Of a DNA stretch of 64,000 bases, positions 16,857 through 38,733 are shown piece after piece; position 1 is the first letter of the stretch, and every line of letters begins with the position of its first letter. The stretch lies in the NCBI GenBank assembly GCA_934277945.1, contig CAKQWA010000002.1:162410-226409 (forward strand), written 5' to 3'. The DNA is from an uncultured Alphaproteobacteria bacterium (GTDB lineage Bacteria > Pseudomonadota > Alphaproteobacteria > CAAGCB01 > CAG-977). The translations under genes and the position numbers were made by a program. Under the pieces are notes generated by a model. It made no database searches and was not told where the DNA came from. It saw only the letters and a program-made list of their open reading frames with translations.

Positions 16857-16875
16857 TTCAACCTCGCTTTACGCA

Positions 16876-19800: not shown

Positions 19801-22800
19801 CACCGTGCCGACCACGTCGCCCTTTTTGGAAATGACCAGTCTGCCGAAAGGCACTTCCACACCGATTTCCTGTCCGCTTTTGTAAACGGCTTTGCTTTGC
19901 TCGTTGACGACGCCCAGCGCGAAGCCCGTCACGGGATGCACGACGTAGCGGTTGCCGAACACGCGCCCGAGAACACGCCCGTGTCTGTCAACCAGATAAC
20001 GCCACCCCGCCGCCGCGCCGATGATGTTCTTTTCGGCGTCCAGCACCATGCCGTCCTGCGTGAAGCATCCGAGCGGATTGCCCTGATAGTCGATCACTTC
20101 GCCGTCGCCGACCGTGCGTCCGAACGACGAGCCGTCAAACGTGACGACCACGCCTTTCTGCACCAGTCTGCCGAGATTTTTGCCGCGTTTGTCGCGCACG
20201 ACGCCGTCGAAATCGACGCATCCGATTTCATCCATGCGCCCGTTCAGCACGCGCCCCTCGGCGTTCAGATTGCCGACGACCTCGCATTGAGAGCCGACCA
20301 CCGCGCGCGGTGAAACGACCAGACCGATCAAAGAGCCGTCGTTGTCGATCACGCCGCGGTCGTACGTCATGCGGGCGATGTTTTTGCCGTTTTTGAACAC
20401 TTCGCCCGTATCCATGCTCAACACGCCCGCGTCCATGTTGCAGGACGGCGCCAGAACGTACGGATCCATCACGCCGTAGCCGATGACGGCGTTCATTTTG
20501 TCCGTGACCGTTTCGTCGGGCAGGAACTTGCCGACCGTGCCGCGCTGTTGATGCACGACGTCGCCGCGCATGGAAATGCGTCCCAAAAAGTCGTTGGACG
20601 GCGTTAAAGCCAAGCCCGAAGACGATTTGAAGCCGACGACCTGACGTTCCGCGTCCGTCTGCATTTTGCCGATAATTTTGCCGTTGAAGTCGGCGACCGT
20701 GCCGTCCGTCCAGACGCGCCCGATGATTTTGCCTTTGAAATCGCGCACCAGAGCGTCGCGTCCGACAACGCCGAGCGGCTTGCCGTCGAAATCGACCGCC
20801 TGTCTGTTGATGTACTGCGCGGGCGGGTCGATTTGCCCGATGATTTTATCCTTGTCGTCCTCAACCGTGCCGTTGGGCAGAACTTCGCCCAAAACGGCGT
20901 TTTGACGGTCGACGACGTTGTTGTCGTTGTCAACGCGCCCGATGATGTTGCCCGTTTCGTCGTAAGCGCGCAGGGAAACGCGCCCGATGACGCGCCCGTT
21001 CAAATCAAGCACCGTGCCGTCGCGAATGACGCGCCCGATGATTTTGCCGGAGGAATCGCGCACCAGACCGTCGGCAAACACGACACCCAGCACCGTATCG
21101 CCCTGTTGCGAATACACGTCGTGATCCACGAAATTCGCGGGGGCTTCCAACTGCCCGAACACCTTGTTCGCGGAATCGTTGACCAAGCCGTCGGAATCCG
21201 CCGTGCCGACGATTTTGCCATCGTCGGAAACGACTTTGCTGTTTTCGTCCGTCTTGCCGATGAACGTGCCGAAAGAATCGTACGCTTTCGTTCCCACGGC
21301 GGGTTTGACGGAAAGCACTTTTTTGCCCTGCGCGTACTGCCCGATGACTTTTCCGGAAGCGTCCAGCACTTCGCCGGTCGCGGACACATAGCCGATGATG
21401 TTGCCGTTCGCGTCCATAATCGGTTCGCCGACGGCGACGATTTCGCCGATTTCGCGTCCCTCTTTGTCGAAAACGCGGTTGGACATATCGGCGTAACCGA
21501 TGATGTTGCCGTTCAAATCGACGACCGTGCCGTCCGGCAGAGCCGTCCCGATGACTTCGCCGTTTTTGCCGATGACCTGACGCACGCCCATGAACACGCG
21601 CCCGACCGTCGCGCCGTTTTTATCGACGACGCGTCCGTCCGGCAACTGCAAATTGCCCAGAAATTCGGATTTCTTGTCCAGAGCGATCCCCTCCGGCAGA
21701 ATACGCCCGATAATCGCCATGGAAGCGTCGAAAACAGGCACGCCCGCGGGAATGACGCCCGCGATTTTAACGTGTTCCGCGTCTTCAATGTAGCCGGTGC
21801 TGACGACGCGTCCCAAACGCTTGTCGCCGCCCAAAGTCAACGCTTCGCCGCGTTCGTTGCCGCGCCCGAACAGAACGCTGTCCTGATTAAGAGCCAAACC
21901 GGTGGAAAGAGGCGTCCCCAAAAACGCGGGCTTGCGCCCCAGCATACTGATCAGACCGTCCGCGCGCAGACAGCCGACGGGCTTGCCCTCCTCGTCGATC
22001 AGTTCGCCCTTGTAGTTCGTATAGCCCAGATACTCGTTCCGGTTGCCCAAAACGCTGCCGCCCTTGACAACACGTCCGATAAACTTGTCCTTATCGTTGA
22101 AAACGGCGTTATTATCCTGAATGTAGCCCAAACGCTCCATGCGCGAATTGACGATGCGCCCGTCGGGAATGATTCTGCCCAGCGGCAGACACGGCATCTG
22201 CATCGCGTAAGCGTCGCGCGGCACGACGCGCCCGACTTTCGAGCCCGAAGCGTCAACGACGACACCGTCGGAGAACACGCGCCCCAAAACCGCGCCTTTG
22301 ATATCCGTCGCCATCGCGTCGGGAGCGACAAAACCGACGGAACGCCCTTTGGCGTTGATGACGCTGTAATTCGGCAACAGTCCGCCCAGCACGACGTTTG
22401 TGGAATCAATGGCGAGGCGCGACGGATCCATACAGCCGATGACCATGCCTTTCTTATTGACGACCTTGCCGCTTTCGTTGGCGAAGCCTTCCACTTCCCC
22501 CGATGAACCGACGACAATCGGCGTATACGGTATCGCGCCGGTCACCATGCCGTCTGCCCCGAAAACATCTCCCGAAGAACTCAACGAACCTTCCACCTGA
22601 CTTGTCGAAACGGAAACGATCTTGCCTTCCGAGTCAAGATACCCCAAGACTTCACAGCCGGCTCTGACGGCAACGGGAACATCGTCGTTCACCCAAGCGC
22701 CCGTCACCTGCCCCGTCGACGACAGAAAAGCACCGTCGGGCTGAATGCGCCCTTTCAGTTCTCCGCCCGAAACAACCGCGCCGTCCGGCATAATCCGTCC

Positions 22801-24411: not shown

Positions 24412-24415
24412 GGTG

Positions 24416-25954
24416 TCATTGTGTCCTTATCACCGTGCAGGCGACGCCGCGGCGTCCCAACTGCGAACATAACGAGTTGCCCTCTTTCAGACTTTCGACG
24501 GGTCCGATGCGCAAACGGAACAGATCCTTGCCGTCGCCGTCCGCCGAAGCGTCAATCGAATAGAACGGCGTGAATTTGCCCAGCAAATCCTTGTTCTTGC
24601 GGGAAATGTTGCCCCACAAGCGTTCCAAATTCGCAATTTCGGCGTCGCTGCCGAATTCGACGGAAATCTTTTCGGGCAGGTTCTTCGCCGCCGGACGCTT
24701 GACATAGCCGTCCGACACCCCTGCACAGCCGGCGCAATTCATTTGAGCCAAGCCCGCCATCGCCTGCGCCGCCGTCATCGGCGCGCCGCTTGTCATCGTG
24801 TTCTTGATTGTCGCGCCGCCCGTCATGTTCAGCCCCGACGTTTTCGGATTGATCGGCGCGGGGACGTATTCGGGCTGGACGGCGGGATCGTAACTGACCC
24901 ATTCCGTGCCGAAAGCGGGATCTTTGCGGATGCGCAGGCAGACAATCCGCTTGCCGTTGCGCAAAACCATGTCGCCAACGCCCTCGACCACAATCAAGCG
25001 GCTGTGCGGTCCCCGAGTTCTGAAACCGACGGGAACTTCGGAGCCCTGCACCAAAAGGTTGACAATCGGACGTTGCAACATGCTCAACGCCTTGGGTCCC
25101 AAGTCGATATAGGTGAAAATTTCGTCGCGCCACACGCGTTCGGGGGCGATTTCAATGTCGTCGGGGTTCGGAATGAACACGTCGATGTCGAAACGCAGTT
25201 TTTCCGGATCGACGGGAATATCGTCAAGCCAGCCGTCGCCGGCGGGATTCGTTTTCGTCGTTCCGCCCTTGCCGACGGCGGAAGAACCGCCTTTGCCGTT
25301 GCGGGAAACGCCGCCGCCCGCGCCTTTCGCCACCGTTCCCGCCGCCATGGGCGTCGTGCCGGAAGCGTCGGGCGTGTAATTCGCGTCGTTGACGACGATG
25401 TCGACGACCGCGTTCGTGATGCGGTCGGTGTTAAACGTTTCGCTTCTTAAATAAAAGACGTATCTGTTGCCCGACCGTCCCATGACGACCATGTTGCTGT
25501 CCACGCCGACGAAGCCGGAGGAGGCTTCCGCGTAAACCAGCAGGGCGTTCGGCGCGGCGAACGTCGTTGAAAAAGCGACCTGATCGCCGACCCAGACCGT
25601 GTCCAGCAATTCCCAAGACGGAAAATTGATCAGCGTGACCATGCCTTCGCGAATGCGCAGCGGCAGAACCAGATCCGGCGTCCATTGATAGCGCGAATAT
25701 CCCGGTTTCGTCTGCCCCTCGCCCAGATGCTCCATCGGCTTGTTCCACGCCTTTTGCTGCATCCCCCAAGACGACAGATGACTGATGTCCATTTCGGAAT
25801 ACTGCCCGTTCGACTGTTCGATTGCGGCGTCCATTGATTCGTAAGAGGACGGGGCGGCTTGCGCGAAAGAGCGCGACGGCAGGCAGGACAGCCCGAAAAC
25901 CGTTGCGGCGAGAATGGATTTTTGAATAAATGTTTTCACGGCAGCACCTATCAT
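24416..25954 (-). CDS. virB9: VirB9/CagX/TrbG-family T4SS outer-membrane core protein with a C-terminal SPOR (peptidoglycan-binding) domain
   Basis: Signal peptide, then a VirB9 N-domain ('RIREGMVTLINFPSWELLDTVWVGD...NRYVFYLRS'). After a Gly-rich linker comes a VirB9 C-domain ('EIFTYIDLG...LRNGKRIVCLRIRK'). The last ~80 aa, 'ISVEFGSDAEIANLERLW...DLFRLRIGPVESLKEGNSLCSQLGRRGVACTVI', is SPOR-like. The start overlaps the virB8b stop by 1 nt. Confidence 0.7.
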   Translation of the reverse strand: MIGAAVKTFIQKSILAATVFGLSCLPSRSFAQAAPSSYESMDAAIEQSNGQYSEMDISHLSSWGMQQKAWNKPMEHLGEGQTKPGYSRYQWTPDLVLPLRIREGMVTLINFPSWELLDTVWVGDQVAFSTTFAAPNALLVYAEASSGFVGVDSNMVVMGRSGNRYVFYLRSETFNTDRITNAVVDIVVNDANYTPDASGTTPMAAGTVAKGAGGGVSRNGKGGSSAVGKGGTTKTNPAGDGWLDDIPVDPEKLRFDIDVFIPNPDDIEIAPERVWRDEIFTYIDLGPKALSMLQRPIVNLLVQGSEVPVGFRTRGPHSRLIVVEGVGDMVLRNGKRIVCLRIRKDPAFGTEWVSYDPAVQPEYVPAPINPKTSGLNMTGGATIKNTMTSGAPMTAAQAMAGLAQMNCAGCAGVSDGYVKRPAAKNLPEKISVEFGSDAEIANLERLWGNISRKNKDLLGKFTPFYSIDASADGDGKDLFRLRIGPVESLKEGNSLCSQLGRRGVACTVIRTQ

Positions 25955-26670
25955 CAGTCGGTTACGCTTTCAATGGAATATCCGTCGACGGAAAAGCCGA
26001 GCGGATTTTTCAAACGGTTGACATATTTCACTTCGTTTTTGGCGAAGTACCGTACCATGACCTGCACTTTCCAGCGGGACAAAGCGGGTTCTTCGGCTTC
26101 GGGAAGCATATCGCGCGTTTGCAGATACACCACCCACAAATTTTGCTGGCGCACGACGGATTCGATACGCACTTCGCGGGTCAGCCCGTCGATTTTGATG
26201 CGTTCCAGCCAATCGCGCAGAGTTTTGTTGAATTCGTTGTAAACGCGGTCGGACGACATCCAGCGGATCGGACCGTCGACGCCCCAGCGGAACGACATTT
26301 CGTCGATATCGGCGACCATGGTGTTGCGCAACAGGACGTACTGGCGGATCAACGCTTCGGTAATGATGTCGGAAGCCGCCAGATTCGCGCTGAGCGGCTG
26401 GACGCGCACGACCTGTTCGTCGCGGCTTTGGAACGTCAGCAGATACGGCTCGACGCGCTTTAACGGCAGCAAATTCCCTATGGCGAGCATTAAAACGATG
26501 TTCGCGCTCAAAGCCACGCCCGACACAATGGCGAAAGCGCGCGCCGTCCACAAATAGCGGCGTTCGCGCAACGCGTCGACGGACACTTCGGAAATTTCGG
26601 GCGTCGGAATTTTCGCCTTCGCCTTTCCGGAAGCGTTGTTTTTCTGTGCGGGAGCGGCGGGTCTAGCCAT
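25954..26670 (-). CDS. virB8: VirB8-family T4SS inner-membrane protein, paralog b
   Basis: Bitopic protein with a cytoplasmic N-terminus, the TM 'AFAIVSGVALSANIVLMLAI', and a periplasmic NTF2-like domain ending with the VirB8 hallmark 'NPLGFSVDGYSI'. Confidence 0.7.
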   Translation of the reverse strand: MARPAAPAQKNNASGKAKAKIPTPEISEVSVDALRERRYLWTARAFAIVSGVALSANIVLMLAIGNLLPLKRVEPYLLTFQSRDEQVVRVQPLSANLAASDIITEALIRQYVLLRNTMVADIDEMSFRWGVDGPIRWMSSDRVYNEFNKTLRDWLERIKIDGLTREVRIESVVRQQNLWVVYLQTRDMLPEAEEPALSRWKVQVMVRYFAKNEVKYVNRLKNPLGFSVDGYSIESVTD

Positions 26671-26691
26671 AGCGTTTCATCCTCGGTCAGA

Positions 26692-26871
26692 TTACGACAT
26701 CAACCATTCGGGCAAACCGGGTTTCAAGTCGATTTGCATACAGGCGCACGGCGATTTTTTCAATTCGGAATAATCGGGTCCTATGCCGACGGGTTCGGTT
26801 TCATAAATCGAACTGCACGCGCCCAGCGCGGCGGTCAATGCGAAAATTAAAATCAATCCTGTTTTTTTCAT
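26692..26871 (-). CDS. Small lipoprotein (59 aa), VirB7-like by position and size
   Basis: Not in the ORF track (<60 aa). The minus-strand ORF reads 'MKKTGLILIFALTAALGACSSIYETEPVGIGPDYSELKKSPCACMQIDLKPGLPEWLMS'. It has a lipoprotein-type signal with Cys at position 19 (LGAC lipobox) and sits between the two virB8 paralogs. Confidence 0.45.
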   Translation of the reverse strand: MKKTGLILIFALTAALGACSSIYETEPVGIGPDYSELKKSPCACMQIDLKPGLPEWLMS

Positions 26872-26935
26872 CGCGTTCTTCCTGTCTGTCTTTTTTTCTT
26901 TTATCCGTTTATCGACCTTTTGTCCATGAGAAAGC

Positions 26936-27640
26936 CTATTTTTTCTGCTTGGCGACGTTATATTGCATCACCGTGAAGCCCATCGGGTTTTTCAAACGGC
27001 GCGCCATGATGGCGTTAAAGGCGAAATAGCGGAATTGAATGGTGGCGATCCAGCTGGTGACAACCGGTTCGACCGCGCCTTCTTTCAGTTCGCGGGTGTC
27101 GAAAAACACCTGCCAGTTGTTCCAGCCGTCCTTGATAATGCGCTTCATGTCGACTTCGACGGTCTGTTCAATGGCTTTTTTGCCGTCGACGATGTCCTCG
27201 ACGTAGCGTGTGGCGAATTTTTCGTACACGGACGGAATGGACAGCGAAGCGATAACCCCGCCGTAGCCCCAGTTGACTTTCATTTCGCGCAGATTCTGCA
27301 CGACGGAGTGGCGAACGGACACATATTGACGCACATACATTTCCGCCAGCGTGTCCATTTTGGGCGCGTCGGCGTGAAGCGGCTCGAAATAAGCGAGATT
27401 TTCGGAAAAAGTCGGCGACGTGACGACGAACGTGTTCGCCTCCGCCTCGCCCGCCAGATGCAGCAGCATCAGGGACAAAAGCGCGGAGGTCGCCGTAAAG
27501 AAAAAGCACAAAGCGCCGAAAATGCGCGATATCCACATAAACTGCGTGGCGCGGTTTTCGGCAATGGCTTCCGCGCGGCGTTTTGCGGCGTTAATGGCGG
27601 CGTTTTGAGCCTTTTTAAGTTGCGTATAATTTTTTTCCAT
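26936..27640 (-). CDS. virB8: VirB8-family T4SS inner-membrane protein, paralog a
   Basis: 234 aa with the TM 'IFGALCFFFTATSALLSLMLLHL' and a periplasmic domain ending 'NPMGFTVMQYNV', the NPxGF VirB8 motif. It is the first gene of the cluster. Confidence 0.7.
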   Translation of the reverse strand: MEKNYTQLKKAQNAAINAAKRRAEAIAENRATQFMWISRIFGALCFFFTATSALLSLMLLHLAGEAEANTFVVTSPTFSENLAYFEPLHADAPKMDTLAEMYVRQYVSVRHSVVQNLREMKVNWGYGGVIASLSIPSVYEKFATRYVEDIVDGKKAIEQTVEVDMKRIIKDGWNNWQVFFDTRELKEGAVEPVVTSWIATIQFRYFAFNAIMARRLKNPMGFTVMQYNVAKQKK

Positions 27641-29039: not shown

Positions 29040-29735
29040 ATGTCGAAAAAGCAAGTCGTGCTGTTGCCCGCGCTGTTGTGCACGCCGGAAATTTTCATCA
29101 ATCAGATTCACGCGTTGCAGCCGCACGCGGACTTTCACACGCCGGACACGACGAAGCGCGCGGATATTGCGTCTTTGGCGAAAGACATTCTGGACGGCGC
29201 GCCGGAACGGTTCGCTCTGGCGGGGATTTCAATGGGCGGCTACGTCGCGTTCGAGATTCTGCGTCAAGCGCCGGAACGCGTGACGGATTTGATATTGATG
29301 GACACGTCCGCCCTGCCCGACGCGCCGGAAAAGCGCGCGAAACGGGCGCAGATTGTGGAATTGGCGAAAGCGCGGGGCATTGAAAGCGTCGTGCCCGCCG
29401 TTTTGCAAAGCCTGCTCGCCCCGCAGTATCGCGACTTGTCGCAGTTGGGGCGTTTCATGACGTTCATGGCGCAGACAATCGGCGTTCAGGGGTTCGCCAA
29501 TCAGCAAAGCGTCATCGCCTCGCGTCCTGATTCGACGGATTTGCTGGGACAAATCGACATTCCGACAACGGTGGTCGGCGGCGCGTGCGACGAAGTGACA
29601 CCGATTGACAAAATGCGCGAACTGGCGGCGCAAATTCCGCACGCGCGCTTTGTATCCGTCGCGGACAGCGGGCATCTGCCGCCTTTGGAAAATCCGGCGG
29701 CGGTCACCCGCATCTTCCAAGACGCGTTACTTTGA
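29040..29735 (+). CDS. Alpha/beta-fold hydrolase
   Basis: 231 aa with 'GISMGGYVA' (GxSxG) and Asp/His residues in the C-terminal half. It starts 9 bp after the isochorismatase gene. Confidence 0.65.
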   Translation: MSKKQVVLLPALLCTPEIFINQIHALQPHADFHTPDTTKRADIASLAKDILDGAPERFALAGISMGGYVAFEILRQAPERVTDLILMDTSALPDAPEKRAKRAQIVELAKARGIESVVPAVLQSLLAPQYRDLSQLGRFMTFMAQTIGVQGFANQQSVIASRPDSTDLLGQIDIPTTVVGGACDEVTPIDKMRELAAQIPHARFVSVADSGHLPPLENPAAVTRIFQDALL

Positions 29736-30716
29736 TTTCCTGTTTTTCTCGCGGAAAGCCTTGATGCGCGCCTGCTGGCGTTCCTTGTAGAGTTGCTTTT
29801 TGGACTTCGGCGTGCCGTCGTCGTTGTACAGGCGGATGCCGTATTCGTCTTTCAAAGCGGACACGTCGTTGCCGGTGATTGAAGCGGACGGCGCGGACGC
29901 GGCGGGCGCGTTCTGGACGGCGGTTTCAGCCGCCTGATTGTTTTTCGCGCTCTGTTTCGCGTTTGACTTTTTAGCGTTTTTCGACGCGGGCTTTGTCTGT
30001 TTCGCCGTTTTGTCGTCTTTGACGGCGGCTTTCTTGCCGGCGGCGTTCTTCAAGTCTTTGGCGGGCTTCGCTTCTTTTTTCTGCGTATCGGCGGATTGAA
30101 CGGCGGACGCTTTTTTCATCTTGGTGACAGCCGCGCCGGAAACGCACTCCTTGCCGCTCCAATACGGCGTTTTGCGGTTGCAGATGTCGCATTTTTGGAA
30201 TTTGACGCACACAAGCGTGCCGTCGTCGTCAATGCCGGAAACGGCTTGATCGCCGGCGTCTTCACCCTCGACGGAAGCGTTCTGCGGCGCGGGCGCGGCG
30301 GATTTTTCAGAAGCCGCCTCCTCCTGCTTTTTCTGTTTTTCCTCGGCGGCTTTTTGCTTGGCAAGATCGGCTTCCTGCTGTTTGCGCAACTTGCGCAGGC
30401 GTTCGACTTCCTTGCGCGCTTCTTCTTGCTTGGCTTCAAATTCCTTGCGGTATTCGGTGTGCGATTTCACCGCCTGCCCGCCGCCCAAAACCCACGGTTG
30501 AGCGCGCCGGCGGGAGTGAATTCCCAGCATATCCTCGGCGGTGGTGTCGGTCGTGTCGTATCCGGCGCGGTCGTCATTTTGGATTTGTTCGGGCGTGTAG
30601 ACGGCATACGCGCCGCCGACGCCGGTCGGATCGCCGGAAGAACCCAAACGCTGTTGCGCGTGCGCGGGCAAGCCGGCGGCAATCAGCAAAGCGGAGAAAA
30701 GAAACCATTTTTTCAT
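29727..30716 (-). CDS. Secreted Lys/Ala/Glu-rich low-complexity protein with a CxxC...CxxC-like cysteine cluster
   Basis: Signal peptide 'MKKWFLFSALLIAAGLPAHA'. It has coiled-coil-like KQEEA repeats and the cluster 'CVKFQKCDICNRKTPYWSGKEC'. It is the third gene of the cluster that follows the 2141-aa protein. Confidence 0.45.
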   Translation of the reverse strand: MKKWFLFSALLIAAGLPAHAQQRLGSSGDPTGVGGAYAVYTPEQIQNDDRAGYDTTDTTAEDMLGIHSRRRAQPWVLGGGQAVKSHTEYRKEFEAKQEEARKEVERLRKLRKQQEADLAKQKAAEEKQKKQEEAASEKSAAPAPQNASVEGEDAGDQAVSGIDDDGTLVCVKFQKCDICNRKTPYWSGKECVSGAAVTKMKKASAVQSADTQKKEAKPAKDLKNAAGKKAAVKDDKTAKQTKPASKNAKKSNAKQSAKNNQAAETAVQNAPAASAPSASITGNDVSALKDEYGIRLYNDDGTPKSKKQLYKERQQARIKAFREKNRKSK

Positions 30717-30728
30717 GACAAATCTCCT

Positions 30729-31559
30729 TTACAAACAGGATCTGTAACGCACGACGCAGGACGCGCCCTTGTATTTCAGCAATTCGACGGCGACCATGTA
30801 CTTTTCAAGCGAGGTGACGCCCTCTTGCGCGCGAATGAAGTTGACGACGCCTTTGGGCAGGAAAACGGCGTTTTTGTCGTCGATGCCCTTGGCGTAAATG
30901 CGGTAGACGGTGGAAGCCTGATCTTCGCCGCCGGAAAATTCGGTGAACGTGCCGTCGTCGTTTCTGGTCATGCGCTTTAAGAAGCCCAAATGCTTGCTCC
31001 CCGGTTCGCGCAAATCGACGGCTTGGAACAGATAGTGCATACTTTTGGTGGCGTAGCGGTAGGGCACGCGCCCGTAAGTGACGACCATGGCGACGGTGTC
31101 GTTGTTGTCGGCGGACAGACTGCACTCGGCGTTGTCGACGGCGGCGGTCAGCACGGGCTCGTCGATTGTCCCGCGCACGCAGAAGTACGCGCTGGTGAAG
31201 CCGTCCGCCATTTTAAGATATTTGTAGGCGTTGATGTGATATCTGCCGCCCTCCGCCAGTTCGGAATTTCCGGCGACTTTGCCGTTCGCGCCGACGGTGA
31301 AGATGATTCCGGAATCGGCGGGGTATTTGGGTTTTGCCTCGCCGACAATGACGGAGGACGCACCCTGCTTTATGGCTTTGTCGTAAACGGTCAGTTTTTT
31401 GGTCGCGTATTCCGCCGCCATTTTGTTTTGTTGCAGCATGGACGACACCATGGCTTCGTACACGGGGACGACGTAATCGTCGGGAGCCTTGGCGACTTCG
31501 CCGAATTTCCCCCATGCGAGCATGGAAATCAAGCTGGCTAAAACGACCCAAAAAAACAT
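30729..31559 (-). CDS. Hypothetical protein with an N-terminal hydrophobic anchor or signal
   Basis: 276 aa with the N-terminus 'MFFWVVLASLISMLAWGKFGEVA'. It lies 56 bp downstream of the giant TadE-like gene. Confidence 0.45.
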   Translation of the reverse strand: MFFWVVLASLISMLAWGKFGEVAKAPDDYVVPVYEAMVSSMLQQNKMAAEYATKKLTVYDKAIKQGASSVIVGEAKPKYPADSGIIFTVGANGKVAGNSELAEGGRYHINAYKYLKMADGFTSAYFCVRGTIDEPVLTAAVDNAECSLSADNNDTVAMVVTYGRVPYRYATKSMHYLFQAVDLREPGSKHLGFLKRMTRNDDGTFTEFSGGEDQASTVYRIYAKGIDDKNAVFLPKGVVNFIRAQEGVTSLEKYMVAVELLKYKGASCVVRYRSCL

Positions 31560-31615
31560 GGCGTTAATCCTTTTGTTGCAGGCGGGGCGTTCGCGGGGAA
31601 CGTCCCGCCCGTTCG

Positions 31616-34600
31616 TTATTTATGCTTCATGAGCAGATTCGGGTTGTCAACCGGTCTGACGCGCCGCTGTTCGTAATCCATGTACGCGTTCGGGAAGTTG
31701 AAGTTCTGCGGATCGAAGTAGCAGTAGGTGTGCACCAGCGCCTGCATCGAGCCGGAGAAAATGCCGCCCATGTTCCAGAAGTAATCCGGCGAAGTGGCGG
31801 ACGTTTTGACCTTGTTCGGCGTCACGGTGCCCATGGCGACCGCCCAACCGCACAAAGTTTTCCCGCCGTATGCACCGCAATCGTAACGGGTCGTATCGGT
31901 GCGCAACCTTGTATCCATTGTAATTTGCAGACAATTTGCCGGCGAGTTCGCGCACAGCGGCTTCGCGGCGACGGCGATGCGCGTCGCGGGCTGGTAGATG
32001 AACGGCACTTCCGTGCGGTAGTCCTGATGTCCGAAGTTCTGGAAACGCCGGCTTGTCTGAATGACGTCCGCCAGATACCTGTTCGGCTGATCGGGATCCG
32101 TATGCGCCTCCCAACCGTAAGTGGGGTCGCCCTCTTGCGAGTCGTCTTCTTCGACAATGGGCAGTTTGCTCAAATCGTTCACGACGTAAAATTCGCCGCC
32201 CGTCGTCGTCGGACCGATAGGAATGGTGCTTGCCGTCGAATTCGACCCCGCGTCGATGAAGATGACCTTGCCCACGTCGAACGCTGTCGGCGTGACGGTC
32301 ATAACGGGCAGATAACCGGCGGGGCAAATGCCTGCCAAATGGTCGTCAATCCCGACAACGCTGCTTCTGCTTGAAGAGTTATACGATGTAAAGCTCACAT
32401 ACATCCCCGGCGCCGGCACGACCCCCATGAACGGGTGGGTCAGACAGCCCGCGGACGACCCGCCGGAACAATGGTAATAATTGTTCGCGGCGTAGGACAC
32501 GAACATGGAACGCGGGTTGACGTTGTACGCCTTGTAGCCGCTTGCGTTCAGCGTGCAGTAGTTTTTGTACCCGAAGCGGTTCATCAGCGAGCAGTCGGTT
32601 TCCCACGCCTCCATGTAATAACTGTTGCGGCTGGCATAGTGGTACTTGTCCAACGTGGCGTTGTTCGTGTCCATATACCGAGCCGGCTCTTTCGCCAATC
32701 TGCCGCGCGGCACGACGAACGAGCAGTTTCCGGGGTTGGAGTTGTAGTAGTTGTAATAACCGTCTTTCCAACCGTCTTCTTTATACATATTTCTTGTCGT
32801 CGCATCGGTTGTGTCGCAGGGCCACGGACCTTTCGCGTATTGGTTGGTTAATGTGTAGATCGACTTCAACACATAGTTCGGCAGAATGTCGCTCAAATTC
32901 GCACCGCCGCGGCTGGTCAGCTTGATGTCGTTCATGACGGACACATACGCGGGGTCCAAACGGAAAGCGTCATAGATTTCCTTGGGTACGTTGGATGTAC
33001 TGCCGTATCTGAACATGGAGGAAGTCGGCTGATACGACTGACCGTCGCCCAGCGCATAACTGTCCCTGCGTCCCGTGGAATAGTTGTAACCGCCGGTTGC
33101 AGTGTCGTTGTCAATCTTTCGAACCTGACGGAACGTCTCGCTGCTGGTATAAGTGTAATATGTCGCATTGTTCCTCCAGTTTATCGTTTGATCCACAGTA
33201 TCGCCGAACTTGCGGGCTTCGTCCCTGTTGACTTCGATGTAGCCGTCCCTGATTTTCCAGTAGCGCGTATCCAAGTCGATGCCTGCCTGACCGTTTCCGG
33301 CAAGTTGCAATCTGCCGTACGACGTGGTTGCCGAACCGTTCCAAGAAGTGTTCGCGGGCTGGTGGACGATTGTCGAAAATTCGGCGATCGGCGGCGTGCC
33401 GTGCGTCGTGTCCGAGCCGTATTGCGACGTGATAATCAAACCGCCGATGATTTTGTTCTGCGCGCCCATGGTGTAGAAACGGGGATCCGCCCTTGTCGCG
33501 TACCTCGGTACGTCAGAACTTAAAGATACGGAGTTCACCAGCGTCGGATTCGGCATGAAATTTTGCGAAACGACGCTCGACTTATTCGGAAGTTTATAAA
33601 AACGCGTATCCGCGCTATTCGTTGAAATTCTGCCGAACGGCGCCCCGTTCAAACCCGAACCGACAGCGTTAATCTGCTCTCTTTGGGTTATAAAGCCGAA
33701 TCTGGCATTTTGCCAGCCTTGCGGCGAATTCGCCGTAAATGCAGTATCAAGCGTTTGTTCGCCCGTACCGACCACAACGCCGGCGGTCGCCCCCAACTTC
33801 AAGTTCATGCCGACGGCGGAAAAGTCGTTCCAAGCAGTACTGTCCGGAACGCGCACAATGTTGCCAAGCAAACCGGACGTGACGTGTATGCCCGAATCGC
33901 CGATCGCCATATAGTCTTGACGGTACGACACGTCGGAAAGCAACTGGCTCTGCGCAAATCTTCTCATTGACGTGCCGGGGGTTTGCGACACGGCAAGCGT
34001 CGTCAAATCGGACGTCGCCGTCAGCAAATTGAAAGTGTCGTAATGGATGCCGCCGGTGCTTCCCGCCGTCATGTTCAACGAAGCGCGCTCCGTCGTATAC
34101 TGTCCTGTCGCTTTGAAAAAGTCGGACGTGGCGCGGTGCTGGTTCTGCCATTCCTCAATGTTGCGGAACGGCGTGCGCGGGTCGAAAAGCACGCGTTCCG
34201 TGCGCAACGAGGAACGCAGTTGCGGCAAAGCGGTGTCCTGAACGCTCGCGTACGAGTCCATTTCCAGCGTCGACCCTTGCAACAGACCGGTGGAGCCGTA
34301 TTCGTCTTCACCCGTAATGTTTTCAGCCACGGCGACCGCCGACAAGTTCAGCGACGGAATGTAGGACAAATGATACCAAGAGTTGTATTGCGCATCCCGT
34401 TTATGATCCGAACGCGGTTGCGACAGCGAGTGCGACCGCAATTTCAACTGCGCCGCCTTTGTCAGCGATTTCCATACTTCGTTGTTGCGCGCGGCTTCCG
34501 AAACCTGTCCGCTTAAAATGTACCCTTTGTGCACGTCGGACGAAACGGCGGACAAAGTCGCCACAGGCGAAGCCGGTTGCATGGCGTCCTGATACGACGA

Positions 34601-37600
34601 GGAAATCGACCCGATGCCCGACGAGCCGACGCCGCCCAGTGCCAGCAAATTCAACTGGCTTGACAAATCCAACTGGGCCTCGCCGGTATCGCGGTTGCCG
34701 CCGGCGGCGTGCGCCGCGTTTGTCGCGTAATAAGCGGAATTCACGGCTTGCGGAACAAAAACGCCGTCGGCATTATAATAACCGCCGCGCTCATACTCGG
34801 TTAAAAGTTCGCTTGTAACAGCCCCCTCATACGAAGACGTCAAACGCGTGCGCGCCTCGCCCAAATAAGTGCCGGCGCTTGTATTCGTTTCTTCAAACGG
34901 CACTTCGTCGTATGTGGACTGGTAAATCTGATTGTGCTCCCGAGAATCGCCCTCTAAAACTTGGGTTTCCAAGCCGCCTTTGAACACATAGTCGTAGTTG
35001 CGCGCCCGACCGTAGCCGCCGATGGAGTTGCCGGAAACAAAGCCTCTGTCCGCATCCTCGTCGCCGTAGTATCTGACGAACAAAGACGCTTTCGGGTTTT
35101 TCTCATACGCGTACATTTTCAAATTCGCGTCGGCATAAGAATTCGCCGCCGCAAAATTAGCGGCGTCATATTGCGCCCCCAGACGCACGGACGGCGCGAT
35201 TCTGTCATTCGCTCCGTAAGCGATGTTTTCCATGTTCAACGACGTCGTCACAACTGCCAAATCGCCCGCCGTCGTACTGTTTCCGGCAAGTTCTCTTGTT
35301 TTCATGGCAATGCGGGAAGAAGAACTGCCAAAGCCTTGCGTGTTTATTTTGGCATACATTCTCAAACCGTTTCGCATTTCGTCATAGTCGCTTTGAGCGA
35401 TGTCCGTTTTGCGATGAATATGTTGCGACCCGCGCGTATCCATGTACTTTTCGTAATCGACGTTTTCCTCGCCGTACGTTTCAAAACGTCCCGACATGGC
35501 GGAAATAAAGGCTTTTGAATCGACATATCTGGAAAGCGCTTCTGAAACAAGGGACGCGGTTTGCGGGGCATACGACATATCTGCGGAATTTGTCGCCGTG
35601 GGCGACAACCCTTTGAACGCTCCGAAACGTCTGTCTTGCCTGTTGTATTCCAATCCGACGAAATACATATCCGAAAGGGGAAGCGCCGTATCGTCGCTGC
35701 CCAAAGCAATATAGTCGTTTAAACTTTTAGGCATTTCCTTTTTCAAACGGGTGGGATTGTTCAATGCAACATACCCCGCCCCCAGTTTTCCGGCGCCCGT
35801 TGACATATCTTGTTTGGCTTCATTGAGGCGGGCGGAGGTCACCATGCCTTCCAATCCGGAATAACGCCTTTCAGAATAATATCCCGAATGGAACGTGTAA
35901 TCGGAACCTATGCTAAACCGTGTCGGCGGCATAAAGCTGTCAGTATATCTGTATCGACTGTTTGTACTGCTTGATTGAAACGGCAGTTCGTCCAATTTAA
36001 CATACGAACGCGTTTCCGTCAGCGTACCGGTGTCAGCCGCGTGTATTTTTGTCGAATAAAGATAAGCTTTGTCAAAAAATGACGAGGAGGTGGAGGAAAA
36101 ATCCAATCCGCTTGCAATGACATTATCGGTTCGGCTCGGTCTATAATTCCTGTAATGTTCCAAAGACAAAGACGGAATTTCATTTCCGTTTCCCGCTCTG
36201 AAATACTGCACGCTGTTCGCCATGACGGATCTGGGCACGTTCACCAACTCGTCAACGTAATTGCTGTACGCGCGCGCATACAATCCGGATTTATAATCGG
36301 TCAGATATCCCGCACCGCCGTGAAACATGGTCGTATTTGCGGACGCGCCCAAACTGTAAGTCGGGTTAAATCCGCGGGAAGCCGCAGAACCGATGGCGCC
36401 GGAATCCGTCAACGTCGGATACACAACCGTTTCATTCGGCTTCATTTCCAGACTGATTGTGCTGTTTTGATTGGCGGCATTCCCCGTTCCTTGTTCATAG
36501 GTGTTGACGCCTGTCGATAAATTGACGTGCGGAGACCTTCCTTGGAAAGAACTGGAAAGAGGAAAAAGAAGATTTTCCGCGCGGGAATCTATTCTTTCGG
36601 AGGCGTTAATATCCAACTTCGCCGTCGTTTCATACCTGTATGTGTCGTTGACGCCGCCTAATTGAAAACCCGAATTGAACGACATTCCGGAAAGCGTTCC
36701 CGCTGTCGTCTGGTCGGCGGGAATTTCGGGCGCCGAAACCGATAAATCCGCATTTGCCTGCGCCGCTCCCGACACATAACGAAAACCGCCCGGTGCGCGA
36801 TACAACCACGTCGCCGCGTTTCTGTGTTCTTTATGGGAAACTCTTGTTTCACCCTCTTGCGTATACCCGTCGTCGTCCAGATTGTGACGGATGCGGTGTT
36901 CTTTGACGTAGCCGTCGTCATTCACCGCGTATTCGCCCGTCGACATGGTTTGACGCGTGAACTGCGCCTGCGGCTTCAAAAGCGCGCGCGTCGCCGAATT
37001 GTAACTTTCGTAATCGGAATCCCCCGGCAACGTCGTGTTGCGCGGCAGGGCGCGCACATACAGCCCCCCGTCGCTCGCCATGAATATGCCTTTCGCGCCC
37101 TTAATGTCGTGCGGCGTGCCGCGACCGTAATCTTCGTCCGTCACCGTGCCGTCGTCGTCGTTCGGAACGCCGACTCTGCCCGCCATGTCCAAATCCGTAA
37201 ACATGGCGTTGCCGCCCTCGACGCTGGTCGGTTTGCGGTACAAAAATTCGCCCAGATTCGAGTTGCCTTTATAAACCGTCGTCACCGCGACCTGTCCGCG
37301 TCCGGGCTGCCACGACGAATTCGCCGCGAAAAAGTCCGTCACGTCCGGAATTTCCCAAATGCCCTGCGCGCCCAAAACGCTGACTTTCGACGCGTCGCCC
37401 GTCACCGCCGCCATGTTCGCCGACGGAATGAAGCCGCCGTCCGCCCCGATCATCGCCGCAATGCGCATCGCGCGCCGGTCCGTAATCTCGTTCGCCGTGC
37501 CGTTGTCCGCGCGCGGTCCCGACACGACCAGAACCGTATAGTCAAACGGCTTGCATTCGTCCGTGCGCTGTCCCGCCGCGTCCCTTGTGTCGCAGGAGTG

Positions 37601-38041
37601 CTGACGCACAATCGCCGCGCGGTAGTTGTCCGCCAGTCTGTTCTGAAACACGCACGTCCCGTTTTCTTCCAGACAGAATCCGGGGGGCAGGAATTTCGCA
37701 AGTTGTCTGTTGTCCAAAACCAGCGATTGCTTTTCCCCGTTCGCCCCCGTGTAACCGCCTCCGAACGCGCCCGAAGCCGACGTGTCCCCCAACGACCCCA
37801 AGTTCGCGTCAATGTACGACATCGCCGCGTCGCGCAACATTTTCATTTGTCCCGCGACCGTGACTTCTTCCACTTCCTGCGTCTTTTCCGACGTCTGCTT
37901 GACAAGCATCGGGCTCATCAGCGTCATCAGCCCCAGAAGCGCAATCGCTTCCAGCATCAGCGCGCCGCGTTCGTCCGAACGCTTTTGCGTATGTGATTCA
38001 ACTCGCGTCTTGCTCATCAGGGACATAAAACGGGACAACAT
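31616..38041 (-). CDS. Giant (2141 aa) S/T/N/Y/G-rich protein with a TadE/pseudopilin-like class III N-terminal signal; putative pilus-associated adhesin
   Basis: The N-terminus 'MLSRFMSLMSKTRVESHTQKRSDERG|ALMLEAIALLGLMTLMSP' has a charged leader ending in Gly, Glu at +5, and a ~18-aa hydrophobic stretch. This resembles the TadE_N 'RGAxxVEFAL' pattern of prepilin-like proteins. The rest is beta-rich and low in charge, with a Cys-rich C-terminal ~250 aa. Confidence 0.55.
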   Translation of the reverse strand: MLSRFMSLMSKTRVESHTQKRSDERGALMLEAIALLGLMTLMSPMLVKQTSEKTQEVEEVTVAGQMKMLRDAAMSYIDANLGSLGDTSASGAFGGGYTGANGEKQSLVLDNRQLAKFLPPGFCLEENGTCVFQNRLADNYRAAIVRQHSCDTRDAAGQRTDECKPFDYTVLVVSGPRADNGTANEITDRRAMRIAAMIGADGGFIPSANMAAVTGDASKVSVLGAQGIWEIPDVTDFFAANSSWQPGRGQVAVTTVYKGNSNLGEFLYRKPTSVEGGNAMFTDLDMAGRVGVPNDDDGTVTDEDYGRGTPHDIKGAKGIFMASDGGLYVRALPRNTTLPGDSDYESYNSATRALLKPQAQFTRQTMSTGEYAVNDDGYVKEHRIRHNLDDDGYTQEGETRVSHKEHRNAATWLYRAPGGFRYVSGAAQANADLSVSAPEIPADQTTAGTLSGMSFNSGFQLGGVNDTYRYETTAKLDINASERIDSRAENLLFPLSSSFQGRSPHVNLSTGVNTYEQGTGNAANQNSTISLEMKPNETVVYPTLTDSGAIGSAASRGFNPTYSLGASANTTMFHGGAGYLTDYKSGLYARAYSNYVDELVNVPRSVMANSVQYFRAGNGNEIPSLSLEHYRNYRPSRTDNVIASGLDFSSTSSSFFDKAYLYSTKIHAADTGTLTETRSYVKLDELPFQSSSTNSRYRYTDSFMPPTRFSIGSDYTFHSGYYSERRYSGLEGMVTSARLNEAKQDMSTGAGKLGAGYVALNNPTRLKKEMPKSLNDYIALGSDDTALPLSDMYFVGLEYNRQDRRFGAFKGLSPTATNSADMSYAPQTASLVSEALSRYVDSKAFISAMSGRFETYGEENVDYEKYMDTRGSQHIHRKTDIAQSDYDEMRNGLRMYAKINTQGFGSSSSRIAMKTRELAGNSTTAGDLAVVTTSLNMENIAYGANDRIAPSVRLGAQYDAANFAAANSYADANLKMYAYEKNPKASLFVRYYGDEDADRGFVSGNSIGGYGRARNYDYVFKGGLETQVLEGDSREHNQIYQSTYDEVPFEETNTSAGTYLGEARTRLTSSYEGAVTSELLTEYERGGYYNADGVFVPQAVNSAYYATNAAHAAGGNRDTGEAQLDLSSQLNLLALGGVGSSGIGSISSSYQDAMQPASPVATLSAVSSDVHKGYILSGQVSEAARNNEVWKSLTKAAQLKLRSHSLSQPRSDHKRDAQYNSWYHLSYIPSLNLSAVAVAENITGEDEYGSTGLLQGSTLEMDSYASVQDTALPQLRSSLRTERVLFDPRTPFRNIEEWQNQHRATSDFFKATGQYTTERASLNMTAGSTGGIHYDTFNLLTATSDLTTLAVSQTPGTSMRRFAQSQLLSDVSYRQDYMAIGDSGIHVTSGLLGNIVRVPDSTAWNDFSAVGMNLKLGATAGVVVGTGEQTLDTAFTANSPQGWQNARFGFITQREQINAVGSGLNGAPFGRISTNSADTRFYKLPNKSSVVSQNFMPNPTLVNSVSLSSDVPRYATRADPRFYTMGAQNKIIGGLIITSQYGSDTTHGTPPIAEFSTIVHQPANTSWNGSATTSYGRLQLAGNGQAGIDLDTRYWKIRDGYIEVNRDEARKFGDTVDQTINWRNNATYYTYTSSETFRQVRKIDNDTATGGYNYSTGRRDSYALGDGQSYQPTSSMFRYGSTSNVPKEIYDAFRLDPAYVSVMNDIKLTSRGGANLSDILPNYVLKSIYTLTNQYAKGPWPCDTTDATTRNMYKEDGWKDGYYNYYNSNPGNCSFVVPRGRLAKEPARYMDTNNATLDKYHYASRNSYYMEAWETDCSLMNRFGYKNYCTLNASGYKAYNVNPRSMFVSYAANNYYHCSGGSSAGCLTHPFMGVVPAPGMYVSFTSYNSSSRSSVVGIDDHLAGICPAGYLPVMTVTPTAFDVGKVIFIDAGSNSTASTIPIGPTTTGGEFYVVNDLSKLPIVEEDDSQEGDPTYGWEAHTDPDQPNRYLADVIQTSRRFQNFGHQDYRTEVPFIYQPATRIAVAAKPLCANSPANCLQITMDTRLRTDTTRYDCGAYGGKTLCGWAVAMGTVTPNKVKTSATSPDYFWNMGGIFSGSMQALVHTYCYFDPQNFNFPNAYMDYEQRRVRPVDNPNLLMKHK

Positions 38042-38295
38042 CGCCTTTACTCCTTTGTTGTGCGGTCGCTTTAAACGCCGCGCCGCCCTGCCATCTTAAA
38101 CGAACTTCCTTAACAACCTTTAAAAAACATCGCTTGATTGCAAGGCGGGCTTAACACTTTTACTTATTGTCAGGCTAGCAAAGCGCGTTTGTCAAAAACA
38201 ACAAAAAACGTGTATATCTGAATCCATAACCCGCGCAAATCCGCCGTTTCAGACGGATATATCTTTGGTCATATACGGTAAAATATCTTTTTATA

Positions 38296-38733
38296 TCAAC
38301 AACTTAAATAATTTTGAAGTTGTTTTATCAGCACTTCGTCCGCCGGCGGCAGACGCTTCACCGCGCCGTTTGAATCCGGCATTTGCATCGCGATGTCGCG
38401 CGCGTTCACGAACGCCGCCTGCTGATTTTCCAAAGGAATCGGATTGCCCGTCCATTCGCGGCAGGCGAAAAACAGCATCACCAAGTGAAAACGCGCGTAC
38501 GAATACGACACAAAGCCGACTTCGCGCAAATCCGACTCGGAAACGCCGATTCCCAATTCCTCTTTCAATTCGCGGCACAGCGCGGCTTGCGGCGTTTCGC
38601 CCGTTTCAATCTTGCCGCCGGGGAATTCCCAGAATCCCGCGAATTCCTTGCCTTCGGGACGCGAGCACATCAGCACCCGCCCCTCCGCGTCAATCAGCGC
38701 GCCCGCAACGACGTAAACAATCTTTTGCATCAC
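38296..38733 (-). CDS. Nudix hydrolase (MutT-like)
   Basis: 145 aa with the Nudix box 'GGKIETGETPQAALCRELKEELGI'. Confidence 0.75.
   Translation of the reverse strand: MMQKIVYVVAGALIDAEGRVLMCSRPEGKEFAGFWEFPGGKIETGETPQAALCRELKEELGIGVSESDLREVGFVSYSYARFHLVMLFFACREWTGNPIPLENQQAAFVNARDIAMQMPDSNGAVKRLPPADEVLIKQLQNYLSC

What the first reader, a model, noticed from the sequence alone, without database searches (positions are those of the whole stretch)
29727..38041. Three-gene minus-strand cluster headed by a 2141-aa protein with a TadE/pseudopilin-type class III signal; possible giant pilus-tip adhesin module
The 2141-aa protein begins with a long basic leader ending in Gly. It continues with 'ALMLEAIALLGLMTLMSP', with Glu at +5 after the Gly and an ~18-aa hydrophobic helix. 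This is the signature of prepilin-peptidase substrates and fits the TadE/TadG 'RGAxxxEFAL' N-motif. The remainder is a very long S/T/N/Y/G-rich, low-charge, presumably beta-rich polypeptide with a Cys-rich C-terminus, and it has no obvious enzymatic motifs. TadG-like minor pilins are normally 400-700 aa, so a 2.1-kDa-scale version is unusual. The two co-directional genes that follow (276 aa with an N-terminal anchor; 329 aa secreted, K/A/E-rich, with a Cys cluster) have no recognisable function and may be partners.
Basis: partly seen in the sequence, partly recalled or inferred. Interest (0 to 1): 0.6.

Follow-up and report, generated by a model that had tools for sequence, protein, structure and literature searches.

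The report
Giant PilV-like type IV pilin module
The 2141-residue protein is a hugely enlarged relative of PilV, the tip adhesin of plasmid type IV pili. It belongs to an unnamed two-gene module found widely in uncultured gut and rumen Alphaproteobacteria, and no pilus-building genes were found near it.

Summary
Three co-directional minus-strand genes encode proteins of 2141, 276 and 329 aa. The first begins with a basic leader, then Gly | ALMLE (Glu at +5) and a hydrophobic helix.

The prepilin-type reading is supported. The leader varies among 14 full-length homologues, while everything from RG|ALMLEAIALLGL onward is invariant. An exhaustive search found 487 related clusters, typically 900-1400 aa. 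Gly(-1) and Glu(+5) are invariant in 50 diverse members.

The TadE/TadG assignment is not supported, because no member matches that model. Instead, the N-terminal domain is homologous to the constant region of PilV, the IncI-plasmid type IVb thin-pilus tip adhesin (Pfam Shufflon_N). The family profile scores 99 bits against a plasmid PilV.

The giant equals the family's N- and C-domains plus a clade-specific insert of about 1300 aa. The 276-aa gene is an obligate partner, adjacent in 73 of 85 loci. The 329-aa secreted protein is specific to the giant clade.

No peptidase or pilus machinery lies in the window or within 10 kb of any relative examined. Cleavage, filament incorporation and adhesion are therefore inferred. 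Verdict: a new variant of a known kind, of moderate interest.

The parts
38166..38195 (-). Candidate sigma70-type promoter (TTGACA-18-GACAAT) upstream of the giant gene
   Evidence: Consensus scan only. It lies in the 254-nt gap after the NUDIX gene.
31616..38041 (-). Giant PilV-like type IV pilin-like protein (2141 aa)
   Evidence: ORF. There are 14 full-length homologues and 487 related clusters.
37964..38041 (-). Class III-type leader, aa 1-26 (or 21 aa if translation starts at Met6), basic and ending in Gly26
   Evidence: The leader varies in length and sequence among homologues, while the following residues are invariant. An AGGAG ribosome-binding site precedes Met1.
37901..37963 (-). Hydrophobic start of the mature protein, ALMLEAIALLGLMTLMSPMLV (Glu at +5, Pro at +18)
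   Evidence: Invariant in 15 giants. G(-1) and E(+5) are invariant in 50 diverse members. Pro is at +18 in 148 of 151 members.
36842..37963 (-). Conserved N-terminal domain (aa 27-400): a long helix followed by an alpha/beta domain related to the PilV constant region
   Evidence: Column identity is 0.66-0.94 across the giant clade. The family HMM scores 99 bits against plasmid PilV. tblastn hits an annotated pilV over residues 3-289. AF2 shows a helix at 25-81, at low confidence.
37178..37504 (-). Best-conserved stretch shared with PilV (aa 180-288), including RIAAMIGADGGF and FLYRK…N.M.T.L.M.G
   Evidence: BLASTP gives 35% identity over 112 aa to C. freundii plasmid PilV. The same columns carry the profile match.
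32975..36841 (-). Clade-specific central insert or 'shaft' (aa 401-1689): Cys-free, S/T/G/Y/N-rich and fast-evolving
   Evidence: Identity is about 0.34-0.6 here against about 0.9 in the termini. There is no similarity to the middles of ~1000-aa relatives and no internal repeats. No Pfam, PDB or PHROG hit was found.
31619..32974 (-). Conserved C-terminal domain (aa 1690-2141) with 12 Cys, shared with the whole family
   Evidence: The family-wide motif VNPAYTSVMNDIKLTSRGGARLSD… appears. Relatives match query positions 395-852. The fold is unknown: the AF2 model has pLDDT 29 and there is no PDB hit.
31581..31609 (.). GC-rich hairpin (12-bp stem) between the giant and partner genes, with no T-run after it on the coding strand
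   Evidence: Its function is unknown.
30729..31559 (-). Obligate partner protein (276 aa): leaderless N-terminal hydrophobic helix MFFWVVLA…, then an amphipathic helix, then a domain with two conserved Cys
   Evidence: It is adjacent on the same strand in 73 of 85 loci and is one of only two families conserved across 46 locus groups. See alignment A8. hhalign to the PilV-like N-domain is weak (E 8e-4, probability 25%, shared YLPxGF motif). It has no Pfam match and no name.
29727..30716 (-). Sec-secreted, largely disordered K/E/A-rich protein (329 aa), found only in the giant clade
   Evidence: Homologues occur only downstream of giant-type genes in L001, L003 and L058.
30591..30617 (-). Conserved motif GGAYAVYTP near the mature N-terminus of the 329-aa protein. 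It resembles the CofJ-type 'SxGGAFT…P' pilus secretion signal.
   Evidence: The sequence is conserved in 4 homologues. The motif and spacing are compared with PMC9565799. This is a resemblance only.

Best explanation
The 2141-aa ORF is a giant member of an unnamed family of PilV-class (type IVb-like) minor pilins. The family is widespread in uncultured gut and rumen Alphaproteobacteria.

Shown:
- The protein has a prepilin-type N-terminus: a 21-26-aa basic leader, Gly at -1, Glu at +5 and a hydrophobic helix.
- This is followed by a ~260-aa domain homologous to the constant N-terminal region of PilV, the IncI-plasmid thin-pilus tip adhesin.
- Next come a clade-specific, fast-evolving shaft of about 1300 aa and a conserved 12-Cys C-terminal domain of about 450 aa that is shared by the whole family.
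- The gene always travels with one partner gene. That partner encodes a leaderless protein with an N-terminal hydrophobic helix.

Inferred:
- The protein inserts into the inner membrane and is cut after Gly26 by an A24 prepilin peptidase encoded elsewhere.
- Through its hydrophobic helix it is built, probably together with the partner and possibly as an oligomer, into the tip of a type IV filament.
- There it primes assembly and holds the conserved C-terminal domain far from the cell, to bind a target or to carry the co-encoded secreted protein.
For: N-terminus:
- The leader is variable and the mature N-terminus is invariant.
- 151 of 161 retrieved relatives carry the motif and the rest are fragments. 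The median leader is 12 aa, residue +1 is S/A/T/G, and Pro is at +18.
- G(-1) and E(+5) are invariant in a 50-member alignment.

Homology to PilV:
- Shufflon_N (PF04917) is hit by 8 of 50 members, best E 1.7e-13.
- A member (P0049) hits pilV in 2486 plasmids.
- The family N-domain HMM scores 99 bits against a plasmid PilV, sharing the IGADGGF and LYRK motifs.
- The window protein itself gives 35% identity over 112 aa. Its tblastn hit to an annotated pilV has E 2e-5 over residues 3-289.

Architecture:
- Relatives of 900-1400 aa match both the N- and the C-domain.
- The insert is unique to the giant clade.

Partner linkage.

Type IV pilus-type genes exist, scattered, in related genomes:
- a PilS-domain pilin (PF08805, 6.6e-13) 4 kb from a family member;
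- small class III pilins in L039 and L121;
- a solitary PilT/ComGA-like ATPase in L044 and L049.

PilV biology (minor pilin and adhesin, with constant N-terminal and variable C-terminal parts) is from PMC9045228.
Against: - No prepilin peptidase, assembly ATPase, platform protein, secretin or major pilin is present in the 64-kb window.
- None lies within 10 kb of the gene in about 90 related loci.
- The window protein itself does not reach any Pfam or NCBIfam pilin model: N_methyl, Shufflon_N and TadE all fail.
- A ~230-kDa pilin subunit is far larger than any characterised one, and how it would pass a secretin is unclear.
- The structure models were too poor to confirm a pilin fold.
- The most conserved part of the family is the C-terminal domain. 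In PilV the receptor-binding C-terminus is the variable part, so this differs.
Confidence: 0.6

Rival explanations
1. It is a TadE/TadG-type pseudopilin of a Tad (type IVc) pilus. A TadV/CpaA peptidase would process it, and it would act as the Tad tip or anchor subunit.
For: The residue after the Gly is small (S/A/T/G) and Glu is at +5, as in Flp/TadE-type substrates (the comparison to Tad motifs rests on my own knowledge). Tad loci are common in Alphaproteobacteria. TadG/CpaL is a large minor-pilin-like tip protein (PMC13533445).
Against: PF07811 (TadE) matches neither the window protein nor any of 50 relatives. The globular domain is homologous to PilV/Shufflon_N instead. No tad or cpa genes appear in the window or in any neighbourhood.
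Confidence: 0.1
2. It is an accessory adhesin of the neighbouring rvh/VirB-like type IV secretion system. It would stabilise contact with target cells, as PilV does for IncI conjugation.
For: In the giant clade the module lies 2-4 kb from a VirB8-VirB7-like-VirB8-VirB9-VirB10-VirB11 cluster, in the window and in L001 and L003. PilV supports mating-pair stabilisation for a T4SS (PMC9045228). Plasmid L037 carries VirB genes beside the type IVb pil operon.
Against: Three conserved metabolic genes separate the two clusters. None of the other contexts inspected individually has VirB genes within 10 kb. No T4SS family recurs in the 46 locus groups. The adjacency is therefore probably local synteny.
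Confidence: 0.1
3. It is not a filament subunit. The pilin-like N-terminus would be an uncleaved signal-anchor, or a relic, that tethers a very long envelope protein to the inner membrane together with its bitopic partner.
For: No peptidase or machinery was found anywhere near about 90 loci. Generic prepilin HMMs do not match. The protein is very large.
Against: G(-1) and E(+5) are invariant across 50 diverse members, and the leader varies freely. That is the signature of a processed pilin, not of a plain anchor. Pilins and a PilT-like ATPase exist in related genomes.
Confidence: 0.15

Closest known systems
PilV, minor pilin and tip adhesin of the IncI1/IncI2 (R64, TP114) type IVb thin pilus (Pfam Shufflon_N, PF04917)
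   Same: The N-terminal constant domain is homologous. Both have a leader of type IVb-like length. Both pair a conserved N-terminal part with a more variable distal part.
   Different: - PilV is about 430-470 aa, against 2141 aa here.
- PilV's variability comes from a shufflon and the Rci recombinase. No such repeats or recombinase occur here.
- PilV sits inside a complete pil operon on a plasmid. This gene is chromosomal, with only one partner gene.
- The plasmid PilV examined lacks Glu at +5 (sequence), whereas this family keeps it.
- This family has a conserved Cys-rich C-terminal domain that PilV lacks.
CofB / TcpB, type IVb minor pilins that form a trimeric tip-initiation complex and bind the N-terminus of the operon-encoded secreted proteins CofJ / TcpF
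   Same: Both show the same logic: a pilin domain followed by beta-rich distal domains. A co-encoded Sec-secreted protein has a conserved N-terminal peptide, GGAYAVYTP, that resembles the CofJ motif SxGGAFT…P in composition and spacing.
   Different: No sequence similarity to any solved structure, CofB and TcpB included, was detected. Trimerisation and cargo binding are untested. The secreted protein is found only in the giant clade.
TadG / CpaL and PilY1 / PilC, large tip-associated proteins of Tad and type IVa pili
   Same: All are large proteins proposed to sit at a type IV filament tip and to present an adhesive domain (PMC13533445).
   Different: There is no TadE-domain, vWA or beta-propeller match. 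PilY1/PilC use Sec signals rather than a pilin N-terminus.

Membership tests
Type IV pilin-like proteins (class III signal peptide substrates) | Short, positively charged leader that ends in Gly | tested here: met
   The leader is 21-26 aa in the window protein, and Gly is invariant. The family median is 12 aa, range 5-41, with median net charge +2.
Type IV pilin-like proteins (class III signal peptide substrates) | Glu at +5, followed by about 20 hydrophobic residues that start a long N-terminal helix | tested here: met
   E31 is invariant in 15 giants and in 50 diverse members. A helix at 25-81 appears in the AF2 model, but at low confidence.
Type IV pilin-like proteins (class III signal peptide substrates) | Match to the generic prepilin N-terminal models (Pfam N_methyl, TIGR02532) | tested here: not met
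   No hit in the window protein or in 50 relatives at E<=0.01. These are short models tuned to type IVa and T2SS sequences.
Type IV pilin-like proteins (class III signal peptide substrates) | Cleavage by an A24 prepilin peptidase and assembly by an ATPase, platform protein and secretin encoded in the genome | tested here: inconclusive
   None is present in the window or within 10 kb of about 90 loci. Related genomes hold scattered pilins and a PilT-like ATPase. Whole genomes could not be searched.
PilV / Shufflon_N (PF04917) | Sequence homology of the N-terminal constant region | tested here: met
   The window protein does not reach the Pfam model directly. Homology is nevertheless supported: 8 of 50 relatives hit it, the family HMM scores 99 bits against plasmid PilV, the window protein shows 35% identity over 112 aa, and tblastn gives E 2e-5 to an annotated pilV.
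PilV / Shufflon_N (PF04917) | Shufflon: invertible 3' segments flanked by sfx repeats, plus an Rci recombinase | tested here: not met
   No significant inverted or direct repeats occur in 29500-38400. No recombinase gene is among the neighbours.
PilV / Shufflon_N (PF04917) | Location in a type IVb pil operon on a conjugative plasmid | tested here: not met
   The context is chromosomal housekeeping genes. No homologues of the plasmid pil genes are present.
TadE / TadG pseudopilins (PF07811) | TadE-like N-terminal domain; a vWA domain in TadG | tested here: not met
   No PF07811 or vWA hit in the window protein or in 50 relatives.
CofB / TcpB type IVb minor pilins | Sequence or fold similarity to the solved CofB or TcpB structures; a trimeric H-type lectin distal domain | tested here: inconclusive
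   Profile searches of PDB sequences found nothing. The structure models were too poor for a fold comparison.

The most novel reading that the evidence does not exclude
The module is a self-contained tip complex of a dispersed type IVb-like system in gut Alphaproteobacteria.

- The PilV-like protein would oligomerise through a beta-helical or extended shaft.
- The leaderless 'MFFW' partner would be a cryptic pilin that caps or completes it without needing a peptidase.
- The downstream Sec-secreted protein would be cargo hooked on by an N-terminal peptide. That peptide is GGAYAVYTP here and EGVQSFQQ..DAWRR in a distant clade. This would mirror CofB-CofJ and TcpB-TcpF.

At 2141 aa this would be by far the largest pilin known (to my knowledge). 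It would raise the question of how such a subunit crosses the outer membrane.
Probability: 0.2. Interest if true: 0.75.

Novelty: new variant of a known kind. Interest (0 to 1): 0.5.

Why it matters
To my knowledge, type IV pilins are normally 7-60 kDa, so a ~230-kDa protein with an intact prepilin N-terminus stretches what the assembly machinery and secretin are thought to handle.

The gene belongs to a large, wholly uncharacterised family of about 490 clusters at 50% identity. Every member that carries a source name comes from an uncultured Alphaproteobacteria MAG and is labelled 'hypothetical protein', apart from one annotated PilV. The related loci come mostly from human-gut metagenomes, and the window's closest genomes are gut and rumen MAGs. 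The family always pairs with one unknown partner gene and is never found beside pilus machinery.

If these proteins are tip adhesins or cargo carriers, they are candidate colonisation factors of a common but unstudied group of gut bacteria. They would also show that the PilV-type tip module has a chromosomal life outside conjugative plasmids.

Tried and rejected
- Pfam, NCBIfam and PHROGs scans of the three window proteins gave nothing significant.
- Profile searches of PDB sequences with the giant clade (A1), the wider family (A7) and the partner (A8) found only chance-level hits.
The N-domain model has pLDDT 47 and the C-domain model pLDDT 29. Foldseek on the N-domain model returned noise.
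- A GTDB genome scan with the giant-clade alignment found no homologue. A second scan with the neighbouring MacB gene identified relatives (uncultured gut and rumen Alphaproteobacteria, including 'Acetobacter sp. CAG:977'). None carries the giant downstream of MacB.
A chimeric single sequence, N400 plus C452 of the window protein, was used instead.
- Searching with only the 67-aa N-terminus, in the hope of finding a major pilin with the same N-terminus, returned three contig-end fragments.
- tblastn with the plasmid type IVb machinery proteins against the window and all loci found only the solitary ATPase in L044 and L049.
- No internal repeats and no similarity to other members were found in the central insert. 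No shufflon-like repeats were found.
- Literature searches for RF32 plus type IV, and for Shufflon_N, gave nothing relevant.
- The T4SS-accessory reading was considered and down-weighted, because the adjacency is confined to the giant clade.


Full report
**Observation.** Gaps of 56 and 12 nt suggest one transcript. An AGGAG ribosome-binding site precedes the first ATG, and a sigma70-like hexamer pair lies in the 254-nt upstream gap. The giant begins MLSRFMSLMSKTRVESHTQKRSDERG|ALMLEAIALLGLMTLMSPMLV. A six-frame scan of the whole window for G-x4-E plus a hydrophobic stretch found this site and only one other, a spurious 24-residue stub. The composition claims hold: the middle (400-1690) is Cys-free and S/A/G/T/Y/N-rich, and 12 of the 16 Cys lie in residues 1742-2107.

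**Is the N-terminus a real prepilin signal?** A word-indexed search found only 14 homologues. All are 1889-2175 aa, all come from metagenomes, and none carries a Pfam domain. In their alignment the leader before Gly26 differs in length and sequence. Everything from RG|ALMLEAIALLGLMTLMSPMLVKQTSEKTQEVEEV onward is invariant, even between proteins only 37-50% identical overall. That is the conservation pattern expected of a processed pilin.

An exhaustive HMMER search was then run with a chimera of the conserved N-terminal 400 and C-terminal 452 residues. It found 487 cluster representatives. Most are 900-1400 aa and match both ends. Of 161 sequences retrieved, 151 carry a short variable leader, then G|[SATG][LM][ML][IVL]E-A-x-A-x-L-G-L, with Pro at +18. 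The remainder are fragments. In a 50-member alignment with a mean column identity of 18%, Gly(-1) and Glu(+5) are among the few invariant columns.

PF07811 is not hit by the window protein or by any of 50 relatives. The generic N_methyl models are not hit either. The link is instead to PilV, the minor pilin and tip adhesin of the IncI-plasmid type IVb thin pilus:
- One relative is named PilV by NCBI.
- Pfam Shufflon_N (PF04917, the PilV constant region) is hit by 8 of 50 relatives, best E 1.7e-13.
- Relative P0049 hits pilV genes on 2486 plasmids by tblastn.
- An HMM of the family's N-terminal 330 residues scores 99 bits against a Citrobacter plasmid PilV. It aligns the motifs RIA..IGA(D/N)GGF and (F/Y)LYRK…N.M.T.L.MGG.
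- The window protein alone gives 35% identity over 112 residues to that PilV. It also gives a tblastn hit (E 2e-5, residues 3-289) to an annotated pilV on an Acetobacter pasteurianus megaplasmid.

The N-terminal ~290 residues are therefore a PilV-type pilin domain. PilV is an experimentally shown minor pilin and adhesin, with a constant N-terminal part and a variable C-terminal part (PMC9045228).

**Architecture of the giant.** Typical members are about 1000 aa. They combine the PilV-like domain, a middle region with weak beta-helix signals, and a conserved Cys-containing C-terminal domain that opens with VNPAYTSVMNDIKLTSRGGARLSD. The beta-helix signals are DUF2345 in 7 of 50 members, bactofilin in 5 of 50, and the phage gp5 needle at E 0.18.

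The window protein keeps both end domains and adds about 1300 residues (401-1689). This insert has no similarity to other members and no internal repeats. It evolves much faster than the ends, at about 0.4 against 0.9 column identity. No family, phage or solved-structure match exists for the insert or the C-domain. My two structure predictions were made on shallow alignments and are unusable beyond a low-confidence helix at residues 25-81.

**Partners.** I collected 90 sequences: the window and 89 loci that encode family members. These came from contig look-ups and a metagenome scan.
- The 276-aa protein's family lies immediately beside the PilV-like gene, on the same strand, in 73 of 85 loci where the gene is detected. 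The exceptions are contig ends.
- It lies downstream in the giant's wider clade and upstream in a distant clade.
- In an all-against-all clustering, only these two families are conserved across the 46 locus groups. They occur in 47 and 38 groups in the script's tally, which adds one bin for loci outside the grouping. The next-best genuine family is confined to 9 groups; one cluster in 13 groups is an antisense ORF overlapping the PilV-like gene.
- All partners begin at Met1 with M-(F/Y/L)-(F/Y/I/V)-W and a hydrophobic helix. An amphipathic helix and a domain with two invariant Cys follow.
- hhalign against the PilV-like N-domain gives a weak signal (E 8e-4, probability 25%). It aligns the second half of the helix and a shared YLPxGF motif.

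I infer, without proof, that the partner is a leaderless pilin-like protein.

The 329-aa protein has a Sec signal and is mostly low-complexity. Homologues occur only after giant-type genes. Its best-conserved segment is near the mature N-terminus: …G-G-A-Y-A-V-Y-T-P. This has the same residues and spacing as the CofJ-type pilus secretion signal, 'SxGGAFT…P' (G7 G8 A9 F10 … P15). That signal hooks CofJ onto the trimeric type IVb minor pilin CofB (PMC9565799; PMC6048534). In the distant clade, an unrelated Sec-secreted protein of about 260 aa follows the PilV-like gene in many loci. It has the conserved mature N-terminus EGVQSFQQ..DAWRR. This parallel with type IVb 'minor pilin plus cognate secreted protein' pairs is suggestive only.

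**Machinery.** This is the weak point. The window encodes no prepilin peptidase, assembly ATPase, platform, secretin or other pilin. None of the roughly 90 neighbourhoods does so consistently. Type IV pilus-type genes do exist, singly and scattered, in related genomes:
- a PilS-domain (type IVb) pilin 4 kb from a family member;
- small class III pilins, G|RSM(I/V)EMLGVLAII…, in L039 and L121;
- a 322-aa ATPase closest to the PilT/ComGA families and 28% identical to the small ATPase of the plasmid pil operon, in L044 and L049.

Whole genomes could not be searched, so cleavage and filament incorporation remain inferences.

**Context.** The MacB neighbour is 77-85% identical to MAGs of uncultured gut and rumen Alphaproteobacteria. 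In the giant clade the module lies near an rvh/VirB-like type IV secretion cluster. None of the other family contexts I inspected individually has VirB genes within 10 kb. I therefore treat the adjacency as local synteny rather than functional linkage.

**Verdict.** The 'prepilin signal' and 'tip adhesin' ideas are supported in outline. The TadE/TadG label should be replaced by 'PilV-class (type IVb-like) minor pilin'. The finding is a new, very large variant of a known kind of protein, inside a large uncharacterised family that forms a fixed two-gene module. The main open question is which machinery, if any, assembles it.

Noticed in passing
window 16876-24411 (-): A 2511-aa VirB10/TrbI homologue. 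The TrbI domain sits at residues 2188-2391, preceded by 19 'beta-flower' repeats (PF21785), DUF3659 repeats and a weak RHS hit. This resembles a CagY-style giant VirB10. The same giant occurs in L001 (2517 aa).
   Followed up: partly
window 15879-27640 (-): An rvh-like type IV secretion gene order: VirB8 (26936-27640), a 59-aa lipoprotein with an LGAC lipobox that is probably VirB7 (26692-26871), a second VirB8 (25954-26670), VirB9/CagX carrying a C-terminal SPOR domain (24416-25954), the giant VirB10, and VirB11 (15879-16856). The order is conserved in L001 and L003.
   Followed up: partly
L035 4433-6973; L041 4124-6375: Pairs of radical SAM / SPASM-domain genes lie directly beside the PilV-like gene in two distant family members. 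They may be maturases for a Cys-rich protein or peptide.
   Followed up: no
L044 217-1188 (-); L049 2061-3029 (-): A solitary 322-aa ATPase closest to the PilT/ComGA families (E about 3e-28; VirB11 only 9e-12). It sits next to znuABC-zur, about 5 kb from the PilV-like module, with no other pilus genes around.
   Followed up: partly
L039 19601-20044 (-); L121 233-1024 (+); L042 18017-18640 (+): Solitary pilin genes lie 4-8 kb from family members. Two have a class III signal, G|RSM(I/V)EMLGVLAII. One has a PilS (type IVb) domain but an atypical N-terminus. They are candidate major pilins of a dispersed system.
   Followed up: partly
L060-L094, directly downstream of the PilV-like gene (e.g. L083 11949-12713): A family of ~255-280-aa Sec-secreted proteins with the conserved mature N-terminus EGVQSFQQ..DAWRR and the C-terminal motif GWNNLN. 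It is unrelated to the window's 329-aa protein but occupies the same position.
   Followed up: partly
L122 11968-14028 (Acetobacter pasteurianus pAP22518-1): A 686-aa gene annotated pilV on a 471-kb replicon. It has a similar leader (…RRDERG|YTPLQ) but Gln instead of Glu at +5. No pil operon is seen in the flanks.
   Followed up: no
window 31581-31609: A 12-bp GC-rich hairpin lies between the giant gene's stop and the partner's ribosome-binding site. No T-run follows it on the coding strand, so it is not a canonical terminator.
   Followed up: no
window 38296-38733 (-) and L001, L003, L035, L049, L121: A NUDIX (MutT-like) gene lies immediately upstream of the module, both in the giant clade and in distant members. 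This is unusually persistent synteny for an unrelated function.
   Followed up: no
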